IMG/VR virus record: IMGVR_UViG_3300031555_010858
Span: 32,001 to 96,000 of that record
Length of the DNA stretch: 64,000 nucleotides
DNA from: a virus
Taxonomy: Duplodnaviria > Caudoviricetes
Reading direction: 5' to 3' (one strand)
The position numbers and the translations under genes were made by a program. Below the pieces are notes generated by a model. That model ran no database searches and was not told where the DNA came from. It was given only the letters and a program-made list of their open reading frames with translations. Shown piece by piece: positions 2,231 to 56,970 of the stretch. Each line of letters starts with the position of its first letter. Position 1 is the stretch's first letter.

Positions 2231-4876
2231 ATGTCAGATGATGTTAAAAAATATACCTCATTGTACGATATAAAAGATTTTGCATTAAACGTATTGGGAC
2301 CTAAATATTTTCCAGAAGATGTTATTGAAGGATATAATATTGGTTTATTAGGATATAGCTTAGATTTTATGACTACAACCACAGAAGACGTTTTTAATAC
2401 AGTTCCTGTGGTAGCAAATGAAATGTTCCCTAATTTAGCACAAATGCCAAATACTATTTATAATTATGCGTCTTTATTCCAAGAACATACCTTATTAGCA
2501 ACACCTGCGGTTATGGAATGTATTTTATTATTACCATTAGATGCATTATTAGCATATTCAGAATATGGTTCTGATGGTACATATAAAAAATTTATATTGG
2601 ATCAAAGAACTGTCGTACATGTTGAGGAACATAGATTTATGTTAGACTATGATATAATGATAACTATGAGACCTTATAGAAAAACTCATATAATAACTTG
2701 TAGTTATGTGAGAGAATATAATAATTCTTTAAGTAATATAAAAAATCCGTATATAAAATATCAAAAATATAACTATAATGGAACCCAATATATAGCATTA
2801 TTAGTTAAAATGAGACGTTGTGATAAACATGTATTTGAAACTAGAGTAATAGATAATGATAGAATTAATGTTAATACTATTAAAGTTCCGTTTACAGATC
2901 AGTTAGCAAATTTTGAAGTATTTTATAGAGAATCAACTGATAAAAAATTTACACAATTGCAAAAAAGATTGGTTAATTCTAAAGTTATAAAAGAACCGTT
3001 TTGTTATTATAAACTTAAGAATGACCAAATGTTGGAATTAACGTTTACTACTAGAGAAAATTATTTCAAACCTAAATTTAATTCAGAGATAAGAGTTGAG
3101 TATTATACTACTGATGGATCAGCATCAAACTTTGAATTATATACTGGTTATAATGTAGAAGTTTATAGGAATAGTGAAAGATACGAAAATAATGCTAGAG
3201 TTCCAGTTATAGCAATAACTGAATCGGCATCAACATCTGGTAAGGATATTCCAAATTTATTAGAACTTAGGGATAGAGTAGCTGATTGTTTTGCAACAGT
3301 TAACTCATATACAACAGAATCAGATTTACAAAGACATTTCAATTCATTTGATATATTGAATGATGTTAGAGTATCTTTTATTAAAAAAAGAGACGATATT
3401 TTCGATAGACTGTATACCGCATATTCTATAAGTAAAGATAGTTTTGGCTCTTATTATAAAACTAACACTGTTCAATTAAAAATATATCGAGATCAATTCG
3501 ATCATGAATTTGAACAATCTGAAAGAATGTTATTAAAACCAACAAATACTTTTATATATGACGGTCCATCAACTAAACGTATTGTTAAGATTGATAAGGA
3601 CGAAATATTAGATTTAGGTTTTAATAATAAGTTCATATATCAAAATCCATTTTTAATGACTGTGTCTAAAAATGGTATGGTTGGATATTATCTGAATAAT
3701 ATAAATGATAAAATACCTTTAGATTATGAGTATGTTAATGATAGTTCTATGGTTCAATTTATATGCAATAACTTATACGTGTATCGTTCATCTATAAACA
3801 ATGAAAATACGTATAAATTTAAATTATATTTAACTGCAACTGATATTGACATAGAATCACCTATGATAGATGAAGCTGGAAACGATACTGGAAGGATAAA
3901 AGTAATATTAACATTCATGCATAAAAATGGTACTGAAGCAGCATTTATAGAATGTAAACAAACTGAGTTTAATCTAGATAATATGAGATATACATATGAA
4001 GGGGAAATCTCTACAGACGACTTTATATCTGATACAGAATCTGTGAGAATATATGATTTACAAAATATGAATGATGGAGAAGATTTAGTTCAAATGATAC
4101 CTATGACTAATCTTAAAATGAATGTGTATACATTATTTGAATATGAAAATGATAATAAACGTCATATTTTTTCACATATTCCAGGATTTGAAAATACTAC
4201 TTTAACTAATAAATATACTACTGAGGAAACAAGAGTTGAGCTTATAACTCCATTGAATATGCTTAAATCACATATGGTATGGGAAAAAGATGAACTAGAT
4301 GCTAATTATTTATTAATTAAAGATGTCCCAGTTATTAAATGGAAAGATACTATATACGAATCCGATATAGAAGAATTTGATAGATTTGTACAAATATTAA
4401 AATCACAATATGATTACATGGACGAAATAATGAGTAAGAAAACTAACAACTACTCCATAGATATGAAGTTTTATAATACGTATGGAAGATCAAATAATTT
4501 TGTTGTAGGTGAAGATCAAGAACTTTTAAACCATGTAAATTGTACATTAGAATTAAAAGTATATCCGTATGTTAGATCTGAAGGTCCTACTTTAGTTAGA
4601 GATATGAAAATGTTCATAAAAGAATATTTTGAGAATATAAATAAAGAACAAAATGAAGGTATATTTATTTCTAATTTAACACAAGAATTGGAAAATACTT
4701 TCCCAGGTATAAGATATTTAAAATTTGAATCGGTTAATAATTATGGTTATAGTTGTCAAAGTATAGAAAACACTGCAGTAGATGTAACTACACTAGATAA
4801 AGCTGAGAGAATAGAATTTGTTCCAGAATATCTAAATATAGAACTAGAAGATATTATAATAGAATTATTAAACTAA
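2231..4876 (+). CDS. Putative baseplate wedge-type structural protein
   Basis: 881 aa; baseplate-wedge-like motifs (VEYYTTDGSASNF, SGKD); co-transcribed with the upstream structural gene. Confidence 0.55.
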   Translation: MSDDVKKYTSLYDIKDFALNVLGPKYFPEDVIEGYNIGLLGYSLDFMTTTTEDVFNTVPVVANEMFPNLAQMPNTIYNYASLFQEHTLLATPAVMECILLLPLDALLAYSEYGSDGTYKKFILDQRTVVHVEEHRFMLDYDIMITMRPYRKTHIITCSYVREYNNSLSNIKNPYIKYQKYNYNGTQYIALLVKMRRCDKHVFETRVIDNDRINVNTIKVPFTDQLANFEVFYRESTDKKFTQLQKRLVNSKVIKEPFCYYKLKNDQMLELTFTTRENYFKPKFNSEIRVEYYTTDGSASNFELYTGYNVEVYRNSERYENNARVPVIAITESASTSGKDIPNLLELRDRVADCFATVNSYTTESDLQRHFNSFDILNDVRVSFIKKRDDIFDRLYTAYSISKDSFGSYYKTNTVQLKIYRDQFDHEFEQSERMLLKPTNTFIYDGPSTKRIVKIDKDEILDLGFNNKFIYQNPFLMTVSKNGMVGYYLNNINDKIPLDYEYVNDSSMVQFICNNLYVYRSSINNENTYKFKLYLTATDIDIESPMIDEAGNDTGRIKVILTFMHKNGTEAAFIECKQTEFNLDNMRYTYEGEISTDDFISDTESVRIYDLQNMNDGEDLVQMIPMTNLKMNVYTLFEYENDNKRHIFSHIPGFENTTLTNKYTTEETRVELITPLNMLKSHMVWEKDELDANYLLIKDVPVIKWKDTIYESDIEEFDRFVQILKSQYDYMDEIMSKKTNNYSIDMKFYNTYGRSNNFVVGEDQELLNHVNCTLELKVYPYVRSEGPTLVRDMKMFIKEYFENINKEQNEGIFISNLTQELENTFPGIRYLKFESVNNYGYSCQSIENTAVDVTTLDKAERIEFVPEYLNIELEDIIIELLN

Positions 4877-4891
4877 AAAAACCGTAGATAA

Positions 4892-4903
4892 AACAATATC
4901 TTA
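4892..4903 (+). promoter_or_regulatory. Late promoter AACA-ATATCT-TA
   Basis: Consensus match upstream of CDS 4944. Confidence 0.7.
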
Positions 4904-4943
4904 ATAGTCAATAAAAAATACAATATGAAAGGAGACTACGTTT

Positions 4944-6836
4944 ATGTCTTATTTTGATAATGCAAATACTAATGTAACTCGTAAAAGTTTTGGTTCTAAA
5001 GTAGATAAAGAATTCAAAAGAGAAGGGGTTATACCTGTTAGAGATAGAAAAAAAGACGATGATACATTATTAGAAGCTGCAACTAAATATAGTGAATTAA
5101 ATAAGCAGGTTGATAATCGTAGATTAAATGATTTAAAAAATCAAAAAGCTTATGATAAAGCTATAAAAGAGGGTTATGAAAGTTTAAAAGAAGAACTGAT
5201 AAGAGACATTATATCTGATATATGTGTGGAATCTTTATTAGTTGATGAAGACGTTGTAAATGAAAACCTTAAAAATATAGTAGAAATGGTTGAAATGAAA
5301 GTTGATGATATAGGGGGATTTGAAGGTATAAAACATATAGCTGAATCTACTAATAACCCTATACTATTAAGCATGGTACGTTTATGTGAAGATACTTGTA
5401 AAAAAGTAGGGCAACGTAACGTAAGAGAATCTAAAGGTTGTGCTAAAGATGTTAACTACGGGTTAGAAAAAATAGAACTTGAAGAGTATGATTATAAAAA
5501 GAAATCTATAGGAGTAGATGCTATAGTAGGCAATATAAAAGATAAAGTATTTAATGTTGTTCAAGATGAACAAAAATTAAGTAGTGACAAACAGATGGTT
5601 ATGTCTGATATAGAGGCTAAAGTTAGTGAACTTGATGCTCCTATAGAAGAAGCTATGTCTTTTATATTCGAAAGTACTGGTATAGAAGTAGATACTTTAT
5701 TTAATTCAATAATGAGAAAGAATTATAAAAATATATTAGAAAATAAATCATCTGCAATATTTGAATCTTTTGATTATAAAGACATGAACCCTACATTCGA
5801 AGAACATGAATTCGTTATGGCTGATATAGAATTAATAGATGAAGAAATAGACAATGATGAATTAGTAGATATGTTCTTAGATGAAGCTCATAAAATCGAA
5901 AACGTTCCTGAATATGAGTATGAAGAAGCTTTAGAAAATTTATATAATGTAGTTAATGAAGGTTCTGAATACATATATTCTAAATCACAAGCTAAACATT
6001 ATAAAGGAATAGTTAGAAAAGTTCAAACTATTCTTGAATCAGATGATGCTGTTCATGATAAAAATGCTGAAAAAGATATGAGTAAAGAAGTAGAAAAAGA
6101 TCTAAAACAAATAAACAAAGAAGGTAAAAAAGCTACTGAAGAAGTTATACTTTGCCCTAAATGTGGTAAAGAAGAATGTTCTTGTAAAGTAGTTAAAGAA
6201 TATATTGATAAAATGGATGATATTTGTGAGAAATTAGATGTTATAATATATGCTCATGAAGAAGCTAGATCTAATGTTATGGAGTCTTTATCTTATGAAA
6301 TAAATGGTCAAAATGTATTTGTTCCATATTTACAACCTAAGGATGTTAATCTAAATAATCTAGAATTCATGTATAAAGCTAAAATGGTTTGTGAAAATAT
6401 GAAGAAAAATGTTCTTAAAGCTGAATATCTTGAAGAAGCTGTTGTAGTTGAAAAAGCTATAAAAATGAATTTAGAATCAATAGATGAGGTTTTAGAAGCA
6501 ATTAAAGAAAATGCTAACTATGAATATAAAGGTAAAGTATTAAAACAATGTAAAAAATATTTAGAAAAAGCACATTCAGTATTAGAACAATATAATTACG
6601 AATCTAATGAATATATCGAAGAGTCAGTTTATAATAATACTGATGATGTTGAAAGAATATTTAATCATGTTAAAGAATATTGTGTAATAGAATCAACAAA
6701 CCACGATTTAATGGAATTAGTTATGGCTGAAGCTATAGTTGAATATACTATATTAGAAACATTTAATACTTTAAGATTATTAAATTATAATAAAGACAAT
6801 GTAAGACAGATGGTTAGAAAAAATATAAGTAAATAA
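4944..6836 (+). CDS. Acidic head/scaffold-type virion protein
   Basis: 630 aa, Glu-rich, many hydrophobic-X-E-S/A motifs (LLEA, IAES, IFES, ILES, VMES, IEES, VIES) like prohead-protease substrates; late promoter. Confidence 0.5.
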   Translation: MSYFDNANTNVTRKSFGSKVDKEFKREGVIPVRDRKKDDDTLLEAATKYSELNKQVDNRRLNDLKNQKAYDKAIKEGYESLKEELIRDIISDICVESLLVDEDVVNENLKNIVEMVEMKVDDIGGFEGIKHIAESTNNPILLSMVRLCEDTCKKVGQRNVRESKGCAKDVNYGLEKIELEEYDYKKKSIGVDAIVGNIKDKVFNVVQDEQKLSSDKQMVMSDIEAKVSELDAPIEEAMSFIFESTGIEVDTLFNSIMRKNYKNILENKSSAIFESFDYKDMNPTFEEHEFVMADIELIDEEIDNDELVDMFLDEAHKIENVPEYEYEEALENLYNVVNEGSEYIYSKSQAKHYKGIVRKVQTILESDDAVHDKNAEKDMSKEVEKDLKQINKEGKKATEEVILCPKCGKEECSCKVVKEYIDKMDDICEKLDVIIYAHEEARSNVMESLSYEINGQNVFVPYLQPKDVNLNNLEFMYKAKMVCENMKKNVLKAEYLEEAVVVEKAIKMNLESIDEVLEAIKENANYEYKGKVLKQCKKYLEKAHSVLEQYNYESNEYIEESVYNNTDDVERIFNHVKEYCVIESTNHDLMELVMAEAIVEYTILETFNTLRLLNYNKDNVRQMVRKNISK

Positions 6837-6880
6837 ATAAATAAAGATATAACCTTAAAAGGTTATATCTTTATTTATTT
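6837..6880. terminator. Bidirectional intrinsic terminator
   Basis: ATAAATAAAGATATAACC-ttaaaa-GGTTATATCTTTATTTAT between convergent genes. Confidence 0.8.
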
Positions 6881-7511
6881 TATCTATGTTATCAAGATAT
6901 TGTTTTCTCTTGGTTATGTTTTTCATGTTGTATTTTGAATCATATCTATCAGCATACTCTATAGTTAATTCTATCCTAGGTTTACTAGAATAAAACTTTC
7001 TTACATGTCCTTCTATAATTAAACTATCATCCATAATAATTGTATTTTGAATCATATCTGAGTATGTTTTTCCTAAATTATCCCAATCAGGTTTAGTTAA
7101 GTTATTTACTAATCCTAATTCAGCTCTTAGTTGTTCCGACTTATTCATTGATTTAGGTGTTGGAAAATAACAATCGCAATATAATTTACATGCTGTAGTT
7201 ATTAATTCAAAATCACTTAATTGTTCTTTAACAAACTTCTCCATGAGCTTTCTATTATTCATAGCGTCAGAAACATAAAAATGTTTACCAAATCCTGCTA
7301 ATCTAGCTCTAGGAGTTGCTTTTGGTATAAAATAGAAAATAAAGCTAATTGTTTTCCATTTAGTATTTAGATTATTTTCTATATCATTTCTTACTCCTTC
7401 TAATTGCTTATCGGATATTCCATCCAGAAAATTATAAATCCTTTCCAAACAATCGTTCGAAACTTCTCCATACTTCTCATCATATTCAATTAATTCTTTT
7501 TTACTTGGCAT
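6855..7511 (-). CDS. rusA: RusA-family Holliday junction resolvase
   Basis: PKATPRAR, KPDWDNLGK, D...DD and KFYSSKPRIE motifs typical of RusA. Confidence 0.8.
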   Translation of the reverse strand: MPSKKELIEYDEKYGEVSNDCLERIYNFLDGISDKQLEGVRNDIENNLNTKWKTISFIFYFIPKATPRARLAGFGKHFYVSDAMNNRKLMEKFVKEQLSDFELITTACKLYCDCYFPTPKSMNKSEQLRAELGLVNNLTKPDWDNLGKTYSDMIQNTIIMDDSLIIEGHVRKFYSSKPRIELTIEYADRYDSKYNMKNITKRKQYLDNIDKINKDITF

Positions 7512-53583: not shown

Positions 53584-54279
53584 ATGAGATTGGTACCAAA
53601 ACAAATAGAAAGTTATAAGAATGATAGACTTATAGAGGAAGTTGATATTTCTAAGATCCCTGATGTTGATATGATATATAATATAGCTTCTGAGAAAGAT
53701 AAGATTAAAACTGTTAAGACATGTGAAAGAATGATACGTTCTAGTTTAGAGTATAAAGATTACATTAAGTTTCTTAAAGATTATATTGATATGACTAAAT
53801 GTAGTTTCTTTGGAAATTCTAAGATGGATCATTATAGTAAGTTTAAAGTAGAAATTCATCATTCGCCATTTACATTATATGATATAACTATGACGGTTCT
53901 TCTTAAACACATGGATTATTATGGGGAAATTAATCTATTTGAAATATGTGAAGAAGTTATGAAATTACATTATCAATGTAGAGTTGGGTTAATACCTTTA
54001 TCAACAACAGTTCATAAGTTAGTACATGAGGGAATGTTATTTATACCTGTTCAAAATGTTAGAGGAGATTGGTTATTATTCTATAAAGAATATGAACCTT
54101 ATATGCCTCAAGATATGAAAGACAAGTTAAAGAATATAGTAAAATTCTCTAAAGAATGTCAAGATTATTCTCTATTGGAAACTAAATATACATATATTGA
54201 TGTAGATGGTTTCAGACCTTTATCTTTAATAGGACAGGAAGAATTTATGAAGAAGATTGTTACAGATCCAAAAAAATAA
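53584..54279 (+). CDS. Hypothetical protein with HNH-like His pattern
   Basis: C..F...VEIHH.PF..GLIPLS.TVH.LVH. Confidence 0.55.
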   Translation: MRLVPKQIESYKNDRLIEEVDISKIPDVDMIYNIASEKDKIKTVKTCERMIRSSLEYKDYIKFLKDYIDMTKCSFFGNSKMDHYSKFKVEIHHSPFTLYDITMTVLLKHMDYYGEINLFEICEEVMKLHYQCRVGLIPLSTTVHKLVHEGMLFIPVQNVRGDWLLFYKEYEPYMPQDMKDKLKNIVKFSKECQDYSLLETKYTYIDVDGFRPLSLIGQEEFMKKIVTDPKK

Positions 54280-54322: not shown

Positions 54323-54649
54323 ATGGAAAACGAAATAAGATATTATCCGTATAATATGATAGGTGAACTAGTGAACGCTGATACTGAAAGTGTAACCAAT
54401 ATGTTAAAATCTATGGGTATATTGGCAATAGAAGAAAATCCTAATACTACTGTTAAATTAGGAAAACTCTGTGTTAATATAAAATTTAGAGCTAGGGAAA
54501 GAGAATTATACGCATTATATTTTAGGGAGAGATTTATTTTTAAACGTGGTAGACAACATTTCATTTTTGAAATAACTGATGAGTTCGTTGAATTTGTTAA
54601 AGATAAAATCGAGAAAGAGGGGTGCTTATATAATGTACAATTTAAATAA
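54323..54649 (+). CDS. Hypothetical protein
   Basis: 108 aa; AAGGAG RBS. Confidence 0.7.
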   Translation: MENEIRYYPYNMIGELVNADTESVTNMLKSMGILAIEENPNTTVKLGKLCVNIKFRARERELYALYFRERFIFKRGRQHFIFEITDEFVEFVKDKIEKEGCLYNVQFK

Positions 54650-55133
54650 TAAATACTGTACATTGGAAATTCTATTAAATGAACTTTATTGTTTATTTGA
54701 AGTAGATTCTCCTGTGTTTATCGATGACCTTGGCTATAAATGGTATGAATTAGTTAACGTTCTTAGGATATTACAAATAGATGAAGAAGAGTATATAAAT
54801 GGATGTTATCTAATGACTATTGAGGATGACACTTTTATATCAGAAGAGGGTATAAATATATTACTGTTAGATTATGACAATGAATATAGAGATGAAATAA
54901 TGAACTATTTAACACTAGATGTTATGCCAGATATTAAATCAGATTTAATGTACTTAGGTTATGACCTAATAGAAAGTGTTAAAAATATTTCATTAAAAAC
55001 GATGAGTGAAAATAATAATGAATTTAATGCAGCTGCAAAAATGAATAATTATGTTTCGAAAAAAACACATAGAATTTCAAAAAGAGACGATATGAGAAAT
55101 GAAACTAAAAATAAAAAGAGACATAAACGTTAA
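54633..55133 (+). CDS. Bro-N-like protein (degenerate)
   Basis: KWY....V..IL, FISEEGI..L and DVMP.I resemble Bro-N; GAGGGG RBS before ATG 54633. Confidence 0.5.
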   Translation: MYNLNNKYCTLEILLNELYCLFEVDSPVFIDDLGYKWYELVNVLRILQIDEEEYINGCYLMTIEDDTFISEEGINILLLDYDNEYRDEIMNYLTLDVMPDIKSDLMYLGYDLIESVKNISLKTMSENNNEFNAAAKMNNYVSKKTHRISKRDDMRNETKNKKRHKR

Positions 55134-55162
55134 TGAAATTTTATCCAACATAACAATTATGT

Positions 55163-55438
55163 AGGGAGAAGAATAAAAGTGGAGGGTACGGGAGTATGTG
55201 TATATACTACATTATATATATGCTCGCTAGATTGCATCTCGCCACCGAGGCTTAGTAGGTTTATTCTCAACTAATCACACTTTTGGCTAATAGTGTGGTG
55301 TACCGTATACTGATGTAGGAGTGAGCGGTATTTGTTAATAGTGTTACTTATCAATAGTGGATAAGGTAAGATAGCATTATTAACTAAATAAAATATGTGT
55401 ATATAGTGAATTCATATCACTATATACACATATTTTTT
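55163..55438 (+). ncRNA. Candidate ~275-nt highly structured late ncRNA
   Basis: Late promoter AACA-ATTATG-TA at 55152-55163; GC-enriched; several G-U-rich stems; strong terminal hairpin plus U run; no long ORF. Confidence 0.65.
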
Positions 55439-55552
55439 CCGTACTGTTTAATTAAATAAAAAATATATTTTATCAAATTTTATTGGAGGTAAAATTCTAA
55501 TGATCCCAGAGAGATCTTAGAGTAGTCCTATGACTACTTATAGATATGTTTG

Positions 55553-55591
55553 TGTAAATTGGTGTTATTTTGATTATATATTATAATAGTG
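55553..55591 (+). promoter_or_regulatory. Early promoter
   Basis: TGTAAATTGGTGTTATTTTGATTATATATTATAATAGTG. Confidence 0.7.
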
Positions 55592-55615: not shown

Positions 55616-56179
55616 ATGAATAATTCTATTTATGTTGTAACTGATGGCAGTTCTATAAGTGCTAATAATTCTAAAGGATTTGATGCAGCTGCTGCATATG
55701 TTATATATGTAAATGGTAAAATAGTTCATAAAGAATCTATCTTGTTAAGAAACCATACGAATAATTATGCTGAAATGTACGCTATATATAAAGGAACTAA
55801 ATATGTATTAGAAAACATGGTTGAGATACATGATTGCAATAATGTCGTAATTATAACTGATTCACAATTATGCGAAAAATCGTTAAATGAATGGATGAAA
55901 GGTTGGTTAAAGAAAGCAACTGACGAAACTCTTATGAGTACAACAGGAGAAGTAAAGAACCAAGAATTAATTAAATCTGCATATATAAATATATTATCAT
56001 TACAATTGTTTATTCCAGTTTATATATGCCATATTAATTCACATAATAACGAAAGTAAAATACTTCATATGCATAAGAAATTCATAGACAAATATTTTGA
56101 TATAGATTTAGAAACATTTAAAATGATATTCGAAGGTAATCAAATAGTTGATAAAATGGCTTATGAAAAATTAAATTAG
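55616..56179 (+). CDS. rnhA: Ribonuclease HI
   Basis: VTDGS, TNNYAE, TDSQ, W..GW, VKNQEL, SH and GN..VDKMA motifs; RBS favours ATG 55616. Confidence 0.88.
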   Translation: MNNSIYVVTDGSSISANNSKGFDAAAAYVIYVNGKIVHKESILLRNHTNNYAEMYAIYKGTKYVLENMVEIHDCNNVVIITDSQLCEKSLNEWMKGWLKKATDETLMSTTGEVKNQELIKSAYINILSLQLFIPVYICHINSHNNESKILHMHKKFIDKYFDIDLETFKMIFEGNQIVDKMAYEKLN

Positions 56180-56220: not shown

Positions 56221-56970
56221 ATGAGAAAATCAGTAGATCATTTAGGAGAAGAGTCTTTTAATAAGAAGGGAACTGTCATGAAAATAATAGAATATATTAA
56301 TAATAGAAAAGTGTTAGTTGAATTTCAAGATGAATACAAATATCAAACTTATACAAATTATCAAGCATTTATAAAAGGAGAAGTTAAAAATGTTTATGAC
56401 AAATCTGTATATGGAGTAGGGTATATAGGTGAAGGACAGTATTCACATAAAACCCATCCTCATAGTTATAATGTATGGAAACATATGATAGCTCGTTGTT
56501 ATGATAAAGTAACTGCAACATCAAATCCTTCATATATCAATTGTTATGTATCTGATGATTGGCTTTGTTTTCAAAATTTCGCAAGTTGGTTCGATGAAAA
56601 TTATTATGAAATACCAGGCGAAATTATGCATTTGGATAAAGATATTTTAATTAAAGGTAATTTACAATATTCATCTGAAACGTGTACATTCGTACCACAA
56701 AGGATAAATAGTTTATTTACAAAAAATGATATGCGTCGAGGTAATTTACCTATCGGTTGTTATTATCATGGTAAAAGTATATATGTATCATGTAATACAC
56801 TCGATGGTAGAGTCCAATTAGGTAGATATGATACGACAATAAAAGCTTTTGAGGCTTATAAAATGTTTAAAGAAAAATATATTCAAAAAGTTGCAGATGA
56901 ATATAGAGATATTATACCAAACAATCTTTATGAGGCTATGTATAATTATAAAGTTGAAATTAATGATTAG
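56221..56970 (+). CDS. Free-standing HNH-type homing endonuclease
   Basis: W..M..RCY, W..FQNF..W, LDKDIL..GN..YS..TC.FVP..IN; AP2-like C-terminal tail. Confidence 0.8.
   Translation: MRKSVDHLGEESFNKKGTVMKIIEYINNRKVLVEFQDEYKYQTYTNYQAFIKGEVKNVYDKSVYGVGYIGEGQYSHKTHPHSYNVWKHMIARCYDKVTATSNPSYINCYVSDDWLCFQNFASWFDENYYEIPGEIMHLDKDILIKGNLQYSSETCTFVPQRINSLFTKNDMRRGNLPIGCYYHGKSIYVSCNTLDGRVQLGRYDTTIKAFEAYKMFKEKYIQKVADEYRDIIPNNLYEAMYNYKVEIND

What the first reader, a model, noticed from the sequence alone, without database searches (positions are those of the whole stretch)
55152..55438. ~275-nt orphan structured RNA with its own late promoter and terminator
Seen: a GC-enriched island with no long ORF. 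Predicted stems include AGAATAAA/TTTATTCT, GTGG/CCAC, GAGTATGTGTATA/TATATATATGCTC, CACACT/AGTGTG, TACCG/CGGTA, TTAATAGTGTTA/TAGCATTATTAA and CTTATC/GATAAG, then a 20-bp terminator stem. Frequent G-U pairs indicate selection at the RNA level on the plus strand. It does not resemble a tRNA, tmRNA, RNase P or SRP RNA by eye. Inference: a new phage ncRNA class, such as a protein sponge or decoy, or a packaged RNA. It sits just upstream of RNase H, but no functional link is shown.
Basis: partly seen in the sequence, partly recalled or inferred. Interest (0 to 1): 0.75.

Follow-up and report, generated by a model that had tools for sequence, protein, structure and literature searches.

The report
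New structured late RNA of jumbo phages
A roughly 275-base gene-free stretch in a cattle-gut jumbo phage related to Bacillus phage AR9 encodes a conserved, intricately folded RNA with its own late promoter; it matches no known RNA family and its job is still unknown.

Summary
Window 55152-55441 is a GC-enriched, ORF-free stretch. Its + strand folds far better than shuffles (z -7.2; - strand -3.9).

The phage is a 203-kb relative of Bacillus phage AR9. The stretch starts with an AR9-type late promoter, AACA-(6N)-TA, with predicted start A55163. That motif is kept with exact spacing in all 11 related lineages I fetched, and it precedes 27% of this genome's ORFs against 3.5% of random windows.

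The relatives keep the same architecture with different sequence:
- a closing helix P1;
- a small hairpin P3;
- hairpins P2', P4 and P5;
- a 17-20 bp terminal hairpin with a conserved apex.

New here: the P3 loop is complementary to the loop of a 3' hairpin, and the pair covaries across lineages (CCACA/UGUGG, CCAUACA/UGUAUGG, GAUGUU/AACAUC, GAUGUC/GACAUC, GGUGUAC/GUACACC). This argues for a compact fold or an oligomer.

No Rfam family, tRNA or tmRNA matches in any lineage. The RNA always follows two small late proteins of unknown function, and all three are missing together from more distant relatives.

Expression is not shown. No RNA run was found, and the only support is an analogous late start site in AR9. 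Function is unknown. My verdict is a real, new family of phage structured RNA, most likely a stand-alone late RNA. The earlier scan note on this stretch is the same reading of the same DNA.

The parts
55152..55164 (+). AR9-type late promoter motif AACA-(6N)-TA; predicted transcription start at A55163
   Evidence: The AR9 late consensus AACA-(6N)-TA/G comes from dRNA-seq (PMC5312081). The motif is kept with the same spacing in all 11 lineages. In this genome it precedes 43 of 160 ORFs within 120 nt, against 3.5% of random windows.
55163..55441 (+). Predicted ~279-nt structured RNA, from the start site to the end of the terminal hairpin and its U run
   Evidence: Fold z -7.2 on the + strand against -3.85 on the - strand. 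No ORF. Compensatory changes in relatives.
55170..55267 (+). 5' domain closed by helix P1 (55170-55177 with 55260-55267). It contains a lineage-specific hairpin (55192-55204 with 55213-55225) and hairpin P3.
   Evidence: P1 is 6-10 bp in all 11 lineages, with a different sequence in almost every one. In the six D-lineage sequences, 5 of its 9 pairs change on both sides.
55238..55249 (+). Hairpin P3 (CUCG/CGAG) with loop CCAC at 55242-55245
   Evidence: The stem is kept as UUCCG/CGGAG, UCUCC/GGAGG, CCCU/GGGG, CUUG/UAAG and CCUG/CAGG in other lineages.
55269..55277 (+). Conserved linker AACUAAUCA after P1
   Evidence: The UAAUCA core is kept in most lineages. In the D lineages I read it by eye as paired with the conserved AAUGGU motif, 7-13 bp; this was not tested.
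55276..55297 (+). Hairpin P2' (CACACU/AGUGUG)
   Evidence: Three pairs change on both sides among three close relatives: CAUACC/GGUAUG and UACACC/GGUGUA.
55300..55331 (+). Hairpin P4 with conserved loop GAUGUAGG
   Evidence: RNAalifold consensus. Reading by eye, the outer stem differs between lineages while a GUGCAG-like loop is kept.
55334..55384 (+). Long hairpin P5 with the 12-nt loop AAUAGUGGAUAA (55353-55364). GUGG at 55357-55360 pairs with the P3 loop.
   Evidence: Stem covariation. Loop-loop complementarity is 4-7 Watson-Crick pairs in every lineage and changes in step. Matched lineage classes average 4.9 and mismatched classes 2.8.
55390..55438 (+). 20-bp terminal hairpin with conserved apex (UGA-AUUCAUA-UCA), followed by a U run
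   Evidence: Terminator scan. The stem sequence differs in every lineage while the apex is kept. The U run is absent in L041, L045 and L060.
55443..55545 (+). Adjacent, very conserved block: an A/T-rich run, GGAGGTAAAATTCT (GGAGG at 55485-55489), hairpin 1 (55496-55521) and hairpin 2 (55522-55538). It may be a 3' extension of the RNA or a separate element.
   Evidence: Nearly identical to L003, whose RNase H is only 55% identical. By eye, both hairpins covary. Its GGAGGTAA core is also present in distant relatives that lack the RNA. The short ORF after it is not conserved.
55571..55591 (+). Early-type promoter of the RNase H gene (TATATATTAT, six bases, then G)
   Evidence: The motif repeats upstream of many + strand genes and matches the AR9 early consensus.
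54323..55133 (+). Two small late genes (108 aa; 166-184 aa with a basic tail) that always precede the RNA
   Evidence: Late motif 22 nt before the 108-aa ORF. Homologues occur only in loci that carry the RNA. No Pfam or PHROG match.

Best explanation
This is a gene for a stand-alone, non-coding, highly structured RNA of about 275 nt. It belongs to a new family carried by a subclade of AR9-like jumbo phages from animal guts.

Proposed mechanism:
1. The phage's non-virion RNA polymerase starts at A55163 from a late promoter (AACA-6N-TA).
2. The RNA folds into a 5' domain closed by helix P1, followed by three hairpins.
3. The fold is locked by base pairing between the loop of hairpin P3 and the loop of the 3' hairpin P5.
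4. In this lineage the RNA ends at a 20-bp hairpin with a U run.
5. Late in infection it most likely acts in trans as a folded scaffold that binds protein. The best candidates are the two small late proteins encoded just upstream, which are inherited together with it. Its conserved loops and hairpin apex would be the recognition surfaces.

Shown: structure, conservation, covariation, the promoter motif and the absence of a known family. Inferred: transcription, the 3' end, action in trans and the protein partners.
For: Structure:
- The + strand fold has z -7.2 and the - strand z -3.85.
- Five other lineages give z -4.0 to -7.7. The + strand is always 17-38 kcal/mol more stable than the - strand.

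Promoter:
- AACA-(6N)-TA/G is the late consensus mapped by dRNA-seq in AR9. AR9 is the closest cultured relative.
- The motif sits at the same spacing in all 11 lineages.
- It is eightfold enriched upstream of ORFs in this genome. Leaders there are mostly 18-51 nt, whereas the next ORF here is 453 nt away.

Covariation:
- 12 pairs change on both sides among three close relatives.
- P1 and P3 are kept with different sequences in all 11 lineages.
- In the D-lineage 5' domain 91.5% of cells are paired, against 37-50% when the partners are slid. Seven pairs change on both sides, and 0 of 500 shuffles reach the score.
- P5 covaries.

Tertiary contact: the P3 loop and the 3' hairpin loop are complementary over 4-7 Watson-Crick pairs in every lineage, with four different sequence solutions. 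Few single-lineage shuffles reach the observed value, from 9 to 996 of 5000.

No known family: Rfam and ARAGORN.

No conserved antiterminator pairing.

Cassette: the 108-aa and 166-aa genes occur only where the RNA occurs.

Precedent: AR9 has a TEX-enriched late start site at 207979. It lies on an AACA-6N-TA motif, 70 nt after the homologue of the 231-aa gene, at the head of a 490-nt ORF-free stretch with fold z -6.4.
Against: - No transcript evidence exists for this phage, and no RNA run was found.
- The terminal hairpin has no U run in L041, L045 and L060. The 3' end is therefore uncertain, and the transcript may run on into the conserved block and the RNase H gene.
- Only 11 related lineages were available. 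Part of the alignment is hand-curated and no R-scape test was run.
- A covariance model of the D-lineage 5' domain does not find the window's RNA. Homology between the two main lineage groups therefore rests on synteny and shared motifs.
- Co-occurrence with the two proteins could reflect a single ancestral insertion rather than shared function.
- The 166-aa protein gave a poor model (pLDDT 63) with no fold match.
Confidence: 0.5

Rival explanations
1. It is a cis-acting 5' leader, riboswitch-like or protein-controlled. The late promoter at 55152 drives late expression of RNase H and the nucleotide-metabolism genes behind it. The folded domain senses a ligand or protein and sets read-through of the terminal hairpin.
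For: - It has a typical Firmicute riboswitch layout: a folded domain with a long-range tertiary contact, then a strong hairpin with a U run, then an A/U-rich stretch with a perfect Shine-Dalgarno sequence.
- In AR9, continuously expressed genes carry both early and late promoters. No other late motif lies between here and RNase H.
- The downstream genes are RNase H and a dCMP deaminase fusion.
Against: - No conserved alternative (antiterminator) pairing exists. Only the window lineage exceeds shuffles.
- The hairpin has no U run in three lineages.
- A 453-nt leader is far outside the 18-51 nt typical here, with a maximum of 100 nt.
- In L003 another gene sits between the element and RNase H. 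In L035 no RNase H was called between the RNA and the dCMP-deaminase gene, although that locus has a run of N there.
- No riboswitch family matches.
Confidence: 0.2
2. It is an RNA-only assembly. The complementary loops pair between molecules rather than within one, so the RNA forms rings or cages, as phi29 pRNA, ROOL and GOLLD do.
For: - Covarying loop-loop complementarity cannot distinguish pairing within one molecule from pairing between molecules.
- The abstract of PMC12286853 reports that GOLLD, ROOL and OLE form homo-oligomeric complexes. From my own knowledge, ROOL and GOLLD are often phage- or prophage-borne.
- D-lineage RNAs carry two copies of the palindrome UCUAGA.
- Late timing would fit a role in virion assembly.
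Against: - There is no similarity to the ROOL, GOLLD or pRNA models.
- At about 275 nt it is less than half the size of ROOL.
- Nothing tested here bears on oligomeric state.
Confidence: 0.12
3. It is the structured 3' untranslated end of the upstream late operon (the 108-aa and 166-aa genes). It would serve only to terminate transcription and protect that mRNA from 3' exonucleases.
For: - It begins only 30 nt after the stop codon at 55133.
- It ends in a strong hairpin.
- It is always linked to these two genes.
Against: - A conserved promoter motif sits between the stop codon and the structure.
- A plain terminator does not need about 230 nt of additional conserved multi-helix structure, a covarying tertiary contact and conserved loop sequences.
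Confidence: 0.08
4. It is a DNA-level element, such as a replication origin or packaging site, whose hairpins form in DNA.
For: - It lies at the border between the late and replication modules, next to RNase H.
- The adjacent A/T-rich block is single-copy and extremely conserved.
Against: - Many G-U pairs exist only on the + strand, and the two strands fold with unequal stability.
- GC skew shows no switch here.
- Covarying loop-loop pairing is an RNA feature.
Confidence: 0.04

Closest known systems
Unannotated late transcript of Bacillus phage AR9 starting at 207979 (Table S3 of PMC5312081, there labelled 'tRNA')
   Same: - An AACA-6N-TA late promoter lies just downstream of the homologue of the 231-aa gene.
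- It heads a long ORF-free, strongly structured stretch (z -6.4).
- It comes from the same phage group.
   Different: - No sequence or structure homology was shown. The R1 model gives 10.6 bits, E 0.09.
- AR9 lacks the two small cassette proteins.
- The AR9 stretch is followed by g243 and a tRNA-Asn gene.
- Other cultured relatives (BpSp, MarsHill, LPJP1, phiR1-37) have no such gap.
ROOL and GOLLD (large ornate RNAs of unknown function)
   Same: - Structured RNAs without an ORF and of unknown function. ROOL's name records a rumen origin, and the window's phage comes from cattle-gut samples.
- The abstract of PMC12286853 reports homo-oligomeric complexes.
- From my own knowledge, both are often carried by phages or prophages of Firmicutes and use kissing loops in their architecture.
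   Different: - No match to their Rfam models in any lineage.
- About 275 nt, against my recollection of about 580 and 800 nt.
- Oligomerisation is untested here.
phi29 packaging RNA (pRNA)
   Same: A phage-encoded structured RNA. From my own knowledge, its sequence drifts while its helices and a pair of mutually complementary loops covary.
   Different: - From my own knowledge, pRNA belongs to small phi29-like podoviruses, is transcribed early and binds the connector.
- No Rfam match here.
- The phage here is an AR9-like jumbo phage.
Terminator-type riboswitches of Firmicutes with a loop-loop contact (lysine, cobalamin)
   Same: A multi-helix domain with a loop-loop tertiary contact, followed by a hairpin, a U run and then a Shine-Dalgarno sequence.
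   Different: - No family match.
- No conserved antiterminator.
- The U run is missing in some lineages.
- The next gene has its own promoter.

Membership tests
Any Rfam 15 family | Covariance-model score at or above the family's gathering threshold | tested here: not met
   No hits in the window or in 12 related loci. Permissive searches of three lineages list only hairpin-like hits far below threshold, on both strands, and inconsistent between lineages.
tRNA / tmRNA | Cloverleaf or tRNA-like domain recognised by ARAGORN | tested here: not met
   No genes in the window or in the whole 202.6-kb record.
AR9-type late transcription unit | Promoter AACA-(6N)-TA/G, with the last base as the start site | tested here: met
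   AACA at 55152-55155 and TA at 55162-55163. The same motif is present in 10 of the other lineages; L037 has TACA. The motif is enriched before ORFs in this genome.
AR9-type late transcription unit | A transcript that appears late in infection | not testable with these tools
   No RNA run holds this phage and the host is not cultured.
Independent small RNA ended by an intrinsic terminator | Stable hairpin directly followed by a U run | tested here: inconclusive
   Met in the window (20 bp plus T6) and in L032, L098, L033 and L037. The U run is weak in L003 and L054 and absent in L041, L045 and L060.
Transcription-attenuating riboswitch | Conserved mutually exclusive antiterminator pairing with one strand of the terminator | tested here: not met
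   Best duplexes between either hairpin strand and the upstream RNA are no better than shuffles in 10 of 11 lineages.
ROOL / GOLLD ornate RNAs | Match to the family consensus sequence and structure | tested here: not met
   Neither family appears at E up to 10.
ROOL / GOLLD ornate RNAs | Homo-oligomer held together by intermolecular loop contacts | not testable with these tools
   Complementary, covarying loops exist, but pairing within one molecule cannot be told from pairing between molecules.
phi29 pRNA | Two loops complementary to each other that covary between phages | tested here: met
   This is a functional resemblance only.
phi29 pRNA | Match to the pRNA model and a phi29-like genome context | tested here: not met
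   No Rfam hit. The phage is an AR9-like jumbo phage.
6S RNA | Long, largely double-stranded rod with a central open-promoter-like bubble | tested here: not met
   The fold is branched, with five or more separate helices. No Rfam 6S hit.

The most novel reading that the evidence does not exclude
The RNA is the core of a new late phage ribonucleoprotein or RNA-only assembly. Its covarying loops would join copies into a ring or cage, or dock the two cassette proteins, and the assembly would act in virion assembly or host takeover. On this reading it is a small jumbo-phage counterpart of pRNA or ROOL, and AR9's unannotated late RNA is a tractable laboratory analogue.
Probability: 0.15. Interest if true: 0.85.

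Novelty: new variant of a known kind. Interest (0 to 1): 0.66.

Why it matters
Complex-folded RNAs with long-range tertiary contacts are rare. They have repeatedly turned out to be ribozymes, riboswitches or the cores of molecular machines, and several phage-borne ones (ROOL, GOLLD) still have no known function.

This one is small enough for structure work. It has a defined promoter class and a clear, testable tertiary contact with natural compensatory variants. It is also linked to two candidate protein partners.

The finding also points to an overlooked late start site in phage AR9, which grows on Bacillus subtilis. That site heads an unannotated structured stretch. If the two are analogous, the biology could be studied in a standard laboratory system. 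The result further shows that AR9-type promoter rules apply to uncultured gut jumbo phages.

Tried and rejected
- Expression. No listed holder is on record as RNA. One run guessed to be RNA (X20) has a 305-nt contig over 55068-55372. It also covers coding genes and may be DNA, so it says nothing about expression.
- DNA searches. blastn against cultured phages found nothing. IMG/VR pattern scans found only two near-identical relatives. A GTGGATAAGGT pattern hit an unrelated coding gene family.
- Metagenome and genome pattern scans were too unspecific. They yielded one new full relative, L098, and a partial one, L156. No host genome was identified.
- The covariance model R1 (D-lineage 5' domain) found neither the window RNA nor the AR9 stretch.
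- T-box, cobalamin, lysine and M-box riboswitches, RNase P, SRP RNA, 6S RNA and group I or II introns were considered by eye. Rfam lists none of them, even at E up to 10.
- I considered and dropped three pairings because they do not hold across lineages (by-eye comparison):
  - the 3' tail CCGUAC with the 5' domain;
  - the hairpin apex with downstream hairpin 2;
  - P1 with the 5' ends of early mRNAs.
- A K-turn at the GAUGA motif does not fit the consensus geometry.
- GC skew gives no sign of an origin.
- The 166-aa neighbour gave a low-confidence model (pLDDT 63) and no Foldseek match at E <= 0.001. Pfam and PHROGs were empty for both small proteins.
- MAFFT Q-INS-i was not usable in the Python box.

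Full report
**What is there.** Window 55152-55441 lies between the stop codon of a 184-aa ORF (55133) and the RNase H gene (55616-56179; Pfam RNase_H). GC rises to 0.41 against about 0.25 around it. No ORF longer than 37 aa is present. The + strand folds at -93.6 kcal/mol, with z -7.2 against dinucleotide shuffles. The - strand reaches only -59.8, z -3.85.

**What phage this is.** The window is part of a 202.6-kb IMG/VR record with 28% GC. Earlier scan notes mentioned non-virion RNA polymerase genes and uracil DNA, which led me to test kinship with AR9. The 231-aa protein two genes upstream (53584-54279) has its best cultured matches in Bacillus phages AR9 and PBS1 (41% identity). Staphylococcus, Listeria and Yersinia jumbo phages of the same group follow. 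Sequencing runs that hold the DNA are animal faeces and bovine gut metagenomes.

**Promoters.**
- In AR9, dRNA-seq defined early promoters as AAATATATATTAT-(6N)-G and late promoters as AACA-(6N)-TA/G (PMC5312081).
- This genome has a repeated TATATATTAT-type motif before many + strand genes, including RNase H at 55575.
- The late motif precedes 43 of 160 ORFs within 120 nt, against 3.5% of random windows. Leaders are mostly 18-51 nt.
- The finding starts exactly with such a motif: AACA at 55152-55155, six bases, then TA, with predicted start A55163.
- The next ORF is 453 nt away, far outside the usual leader length.

**Relatives.** A search with the 231-aa protein found 355 relatives. I fetched the DNA around 14 of them and around two IMG/VR contigs; a metagenome scan added one more locus, L098. 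Eleven distinct lineages, with 62-93% identity in that protein, show the same gene order:
1. the 231-aa gene;
2. a gene of about 108 aa;
3. a gene of about 166 aa;
4. an ORF-free gap of 480-800 nt;
5. RNase H, sometimes after an inserted gene.

In every gap the late motif sits at the same place with the same spacing, followed by a GC-richer structured stretch. Five further lineages tested also fold better than shuffles (z -4.0 to -7.7). Their + strand is always 17-38 kcal/mol more stable than the - strand.

**Secondary structure and covariation.**
- Among three close relatives (window, L032, L098), RNAalifold finds 85 pairs. Twelve of them change on both sides while staying paired. These changes are spread over the inserted hairpin, P2', P5 and the terminal hairpin.
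- Across all 11 lineages the closing helix P1 is 6-10 bp with a different sequence almost every time. Hairpin P3 is kept as CUCG/CGAG, UUCCG/CGGAG, UCUCC/GGAGG, CCCU/GGGG, CUUG/UAAG or CCUG/CAGG.
- In the six sequences of the most divergent group (L041, L042, L045, L056, L057, L060), my hand-drawn structure of the 5' domain pairs 91.5% of cells, against 37-50% when the partners are slid. Seven pairs change on both sides and no shuffle of 500 reaches the score.
- P5 also covaries.

**A long-range contact.** The P3 loop is complementary to the loop of a 3' hairpin in every lineage, and the two change together:

| Lineages | P3 loop | 3' hairpin loop |
|---|---|---|
| Window-like | CCAC(A) | (U)GUGG |
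| L037 | CCAUACA | UGUAUGG |
| L041, L057 | GAUGUU | AACAUC |
| L045 | GAUGUC | GACAUC |
| L060 | GGUGUAC | GUACACC |

Matched lineage classes average 4.9 contiguous Watson-Crick pairs and mismatched classes 2.8. Between 9 and 996 of 5000 single-lineage shuffles reach the observed value, and the four sequence solutions are independent. This is the strongest sign that the RNA adopts a specific three-dimensional fold or joins copies of itself. A terminator or mRNA end would not need it.

**The 3' end.** The terminal hairpin (55390-55436) is 17-20 bp everywhere, with free covariation of the stem but a conserved apex (UGA-AGUCAUA-UCA or near). In the window it is followed by six U's and scores as a terminator. 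In L041, L045 and L060 there is no U run. The hairpin therefore does something sequence-specific, and the 3' end of the RNA is not settled for the whole family. I found no conserved alternative pairing that could act as an antiterminator.

**The neighbouring block.** Positions 55443-55545 are nearly identical to L003, although the flanking RNase H is only 55% identical. The block consists of an A/T-rich run, GGAGGTAAAATTCT and two small hairpins whose stems also covary by eye. The short ORF behind the Shine-Dalgarno-like GGAGG is not conserved, and an ATG is missing in several lineages. The GGAGGTAA core persists in more distant relatives that lack the RNA. I therefore treat it as a separate element of unknown role. 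It could still be a 3' extension of the RNA where the U run is missing.

**Known families.** Rfam 15 gives nothing at gathering thresholds in the window or in 12 related loci. Permissive searches of three lineages list only microRNA-like hairpin hits on both strands. ARAGORN finds no tRNA or tmRNA in the whole genome.

**Distribution and linkage.** In relatives whose 231-aa protein is only 50-61% identical, the 231-aa and RNase H genes are present. The region upstream of RNase H is short (160-390 nt), has 17-22% GC and carries no structured RNA. The 108-aa and 166-aa proteins are absent from those loci as well, and from the four cultured phages checked. The two small late proteins and the RNA are thus a cassette inherited together. 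Both proteins have no known family. The larger one has a basic tail, but its model was poor and matched nothing.

**A precedent in AR9.** In AR9 the homologue (g242) is followed by a 560-nt unannotated gap. I predicted a late start at 207979 from the motif. Table S3 of PMC5312081 lists exactly that position as a primary late start site with TEX enrichment 2.02. It is labelled 'tRNA' with no leader length. The tRNA-Asn gene is 925 nt further on, behind g243, and has its own start site at 208874. The gap folds with z -6.4. So AR9 does transcribe an ORF-free structured stretch from a late promoter at the analogous place. I could not show homology: my covariance model gives 10.6 bits there. Other cultured relatives have no such gap.

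**Interpretation.** A real, conserved, + strand structured RNA is very likely; I put it near 0.9. I rank the readings as follows:
- A stand-alone late RNA acting in trans, probably with protein (0.5).
- A cis-acting leader for late RNase H expression (0.2).
- An RNA-only oligomer (0.12).
- A mere 3' end of the upstream operon (0.08).
- A DNA element (0.04).

**Limits.**
- No expression data exist for this phage.
- Only 11 lineages were available, and they are related to one another.
- Part of the alignment is hand-curated.
- A covariance model of one lineage group does not recover the other.

Noticed in passing
window 55443-55545: A single-copy block is nearly identical in a relative whose RNase H is only 55% identical. 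It comprises an A/T-rich run, GGAGGTAAAATTCT and two covarying small hairpins. Its GGAGGTAA core also occurs in distant relatives that lack the RNA. The mini-ORF after it is not conserved.
   Followed up: partly
window 56221-56970: A 249-aa ORF matches HNH homing-endonuclease PHROGs (E 2e-54). It is absent at this place in relatives, and a metagenome contig joins 56225 to 57011 without it. It looks like a mobile insertion between RNase H and the dCMP deaminase fusion.
   Followed up: partly
L308 (AR9 KU878088) 4703-5262, record 207909-208468: An unannotated 560-nt gap after g242 has a published late start site at 207979 (labelled 'tRNA' in the paper's table) and fold z -6.4. It is probably an overlooked late non-coding RNA or a very long leader in a laboratory phage.
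   Followed up: partly
L045 about 6720-6900 and L046 about 3360-3610: Three or four tandem copies of a 29-nt palindromic unit (CCGTTAGGGAGATATGAGTACCCTAACCG) with short variable spacers lie between the early promoter and the next gene. They could be a repeat array of an RNA or a protein-binding site.
   Followed up: no
L033 about 6430-6600: Two copies of a unit of about 75 nt (starting TATGGTTTATAACTTTATA and containing TAACGGGTATAAAGGACAGG) lie upstream of RNase H. This may be a second small structured RNA present in duplicate.
   Followed up: no
window 54323-55133: The 108-aa and 166-184-aa late genes have no known family. They occur only in phages that carry the RNA, and the larger one ends in a Lys/Arg-rich tail.
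   Followed up: partly
whole genome G000: AR9-type promoter grammar carries over to this uncultured gut phage. The early motif TATATATTAT-(6N)-G, preceded by TGTAAAAAGGT, precedes many genes. The late motif AACA-(6N)-TA precedes 43 of 160 ORFs, with leaders of about 18-51 nt.
   Followed up: yes
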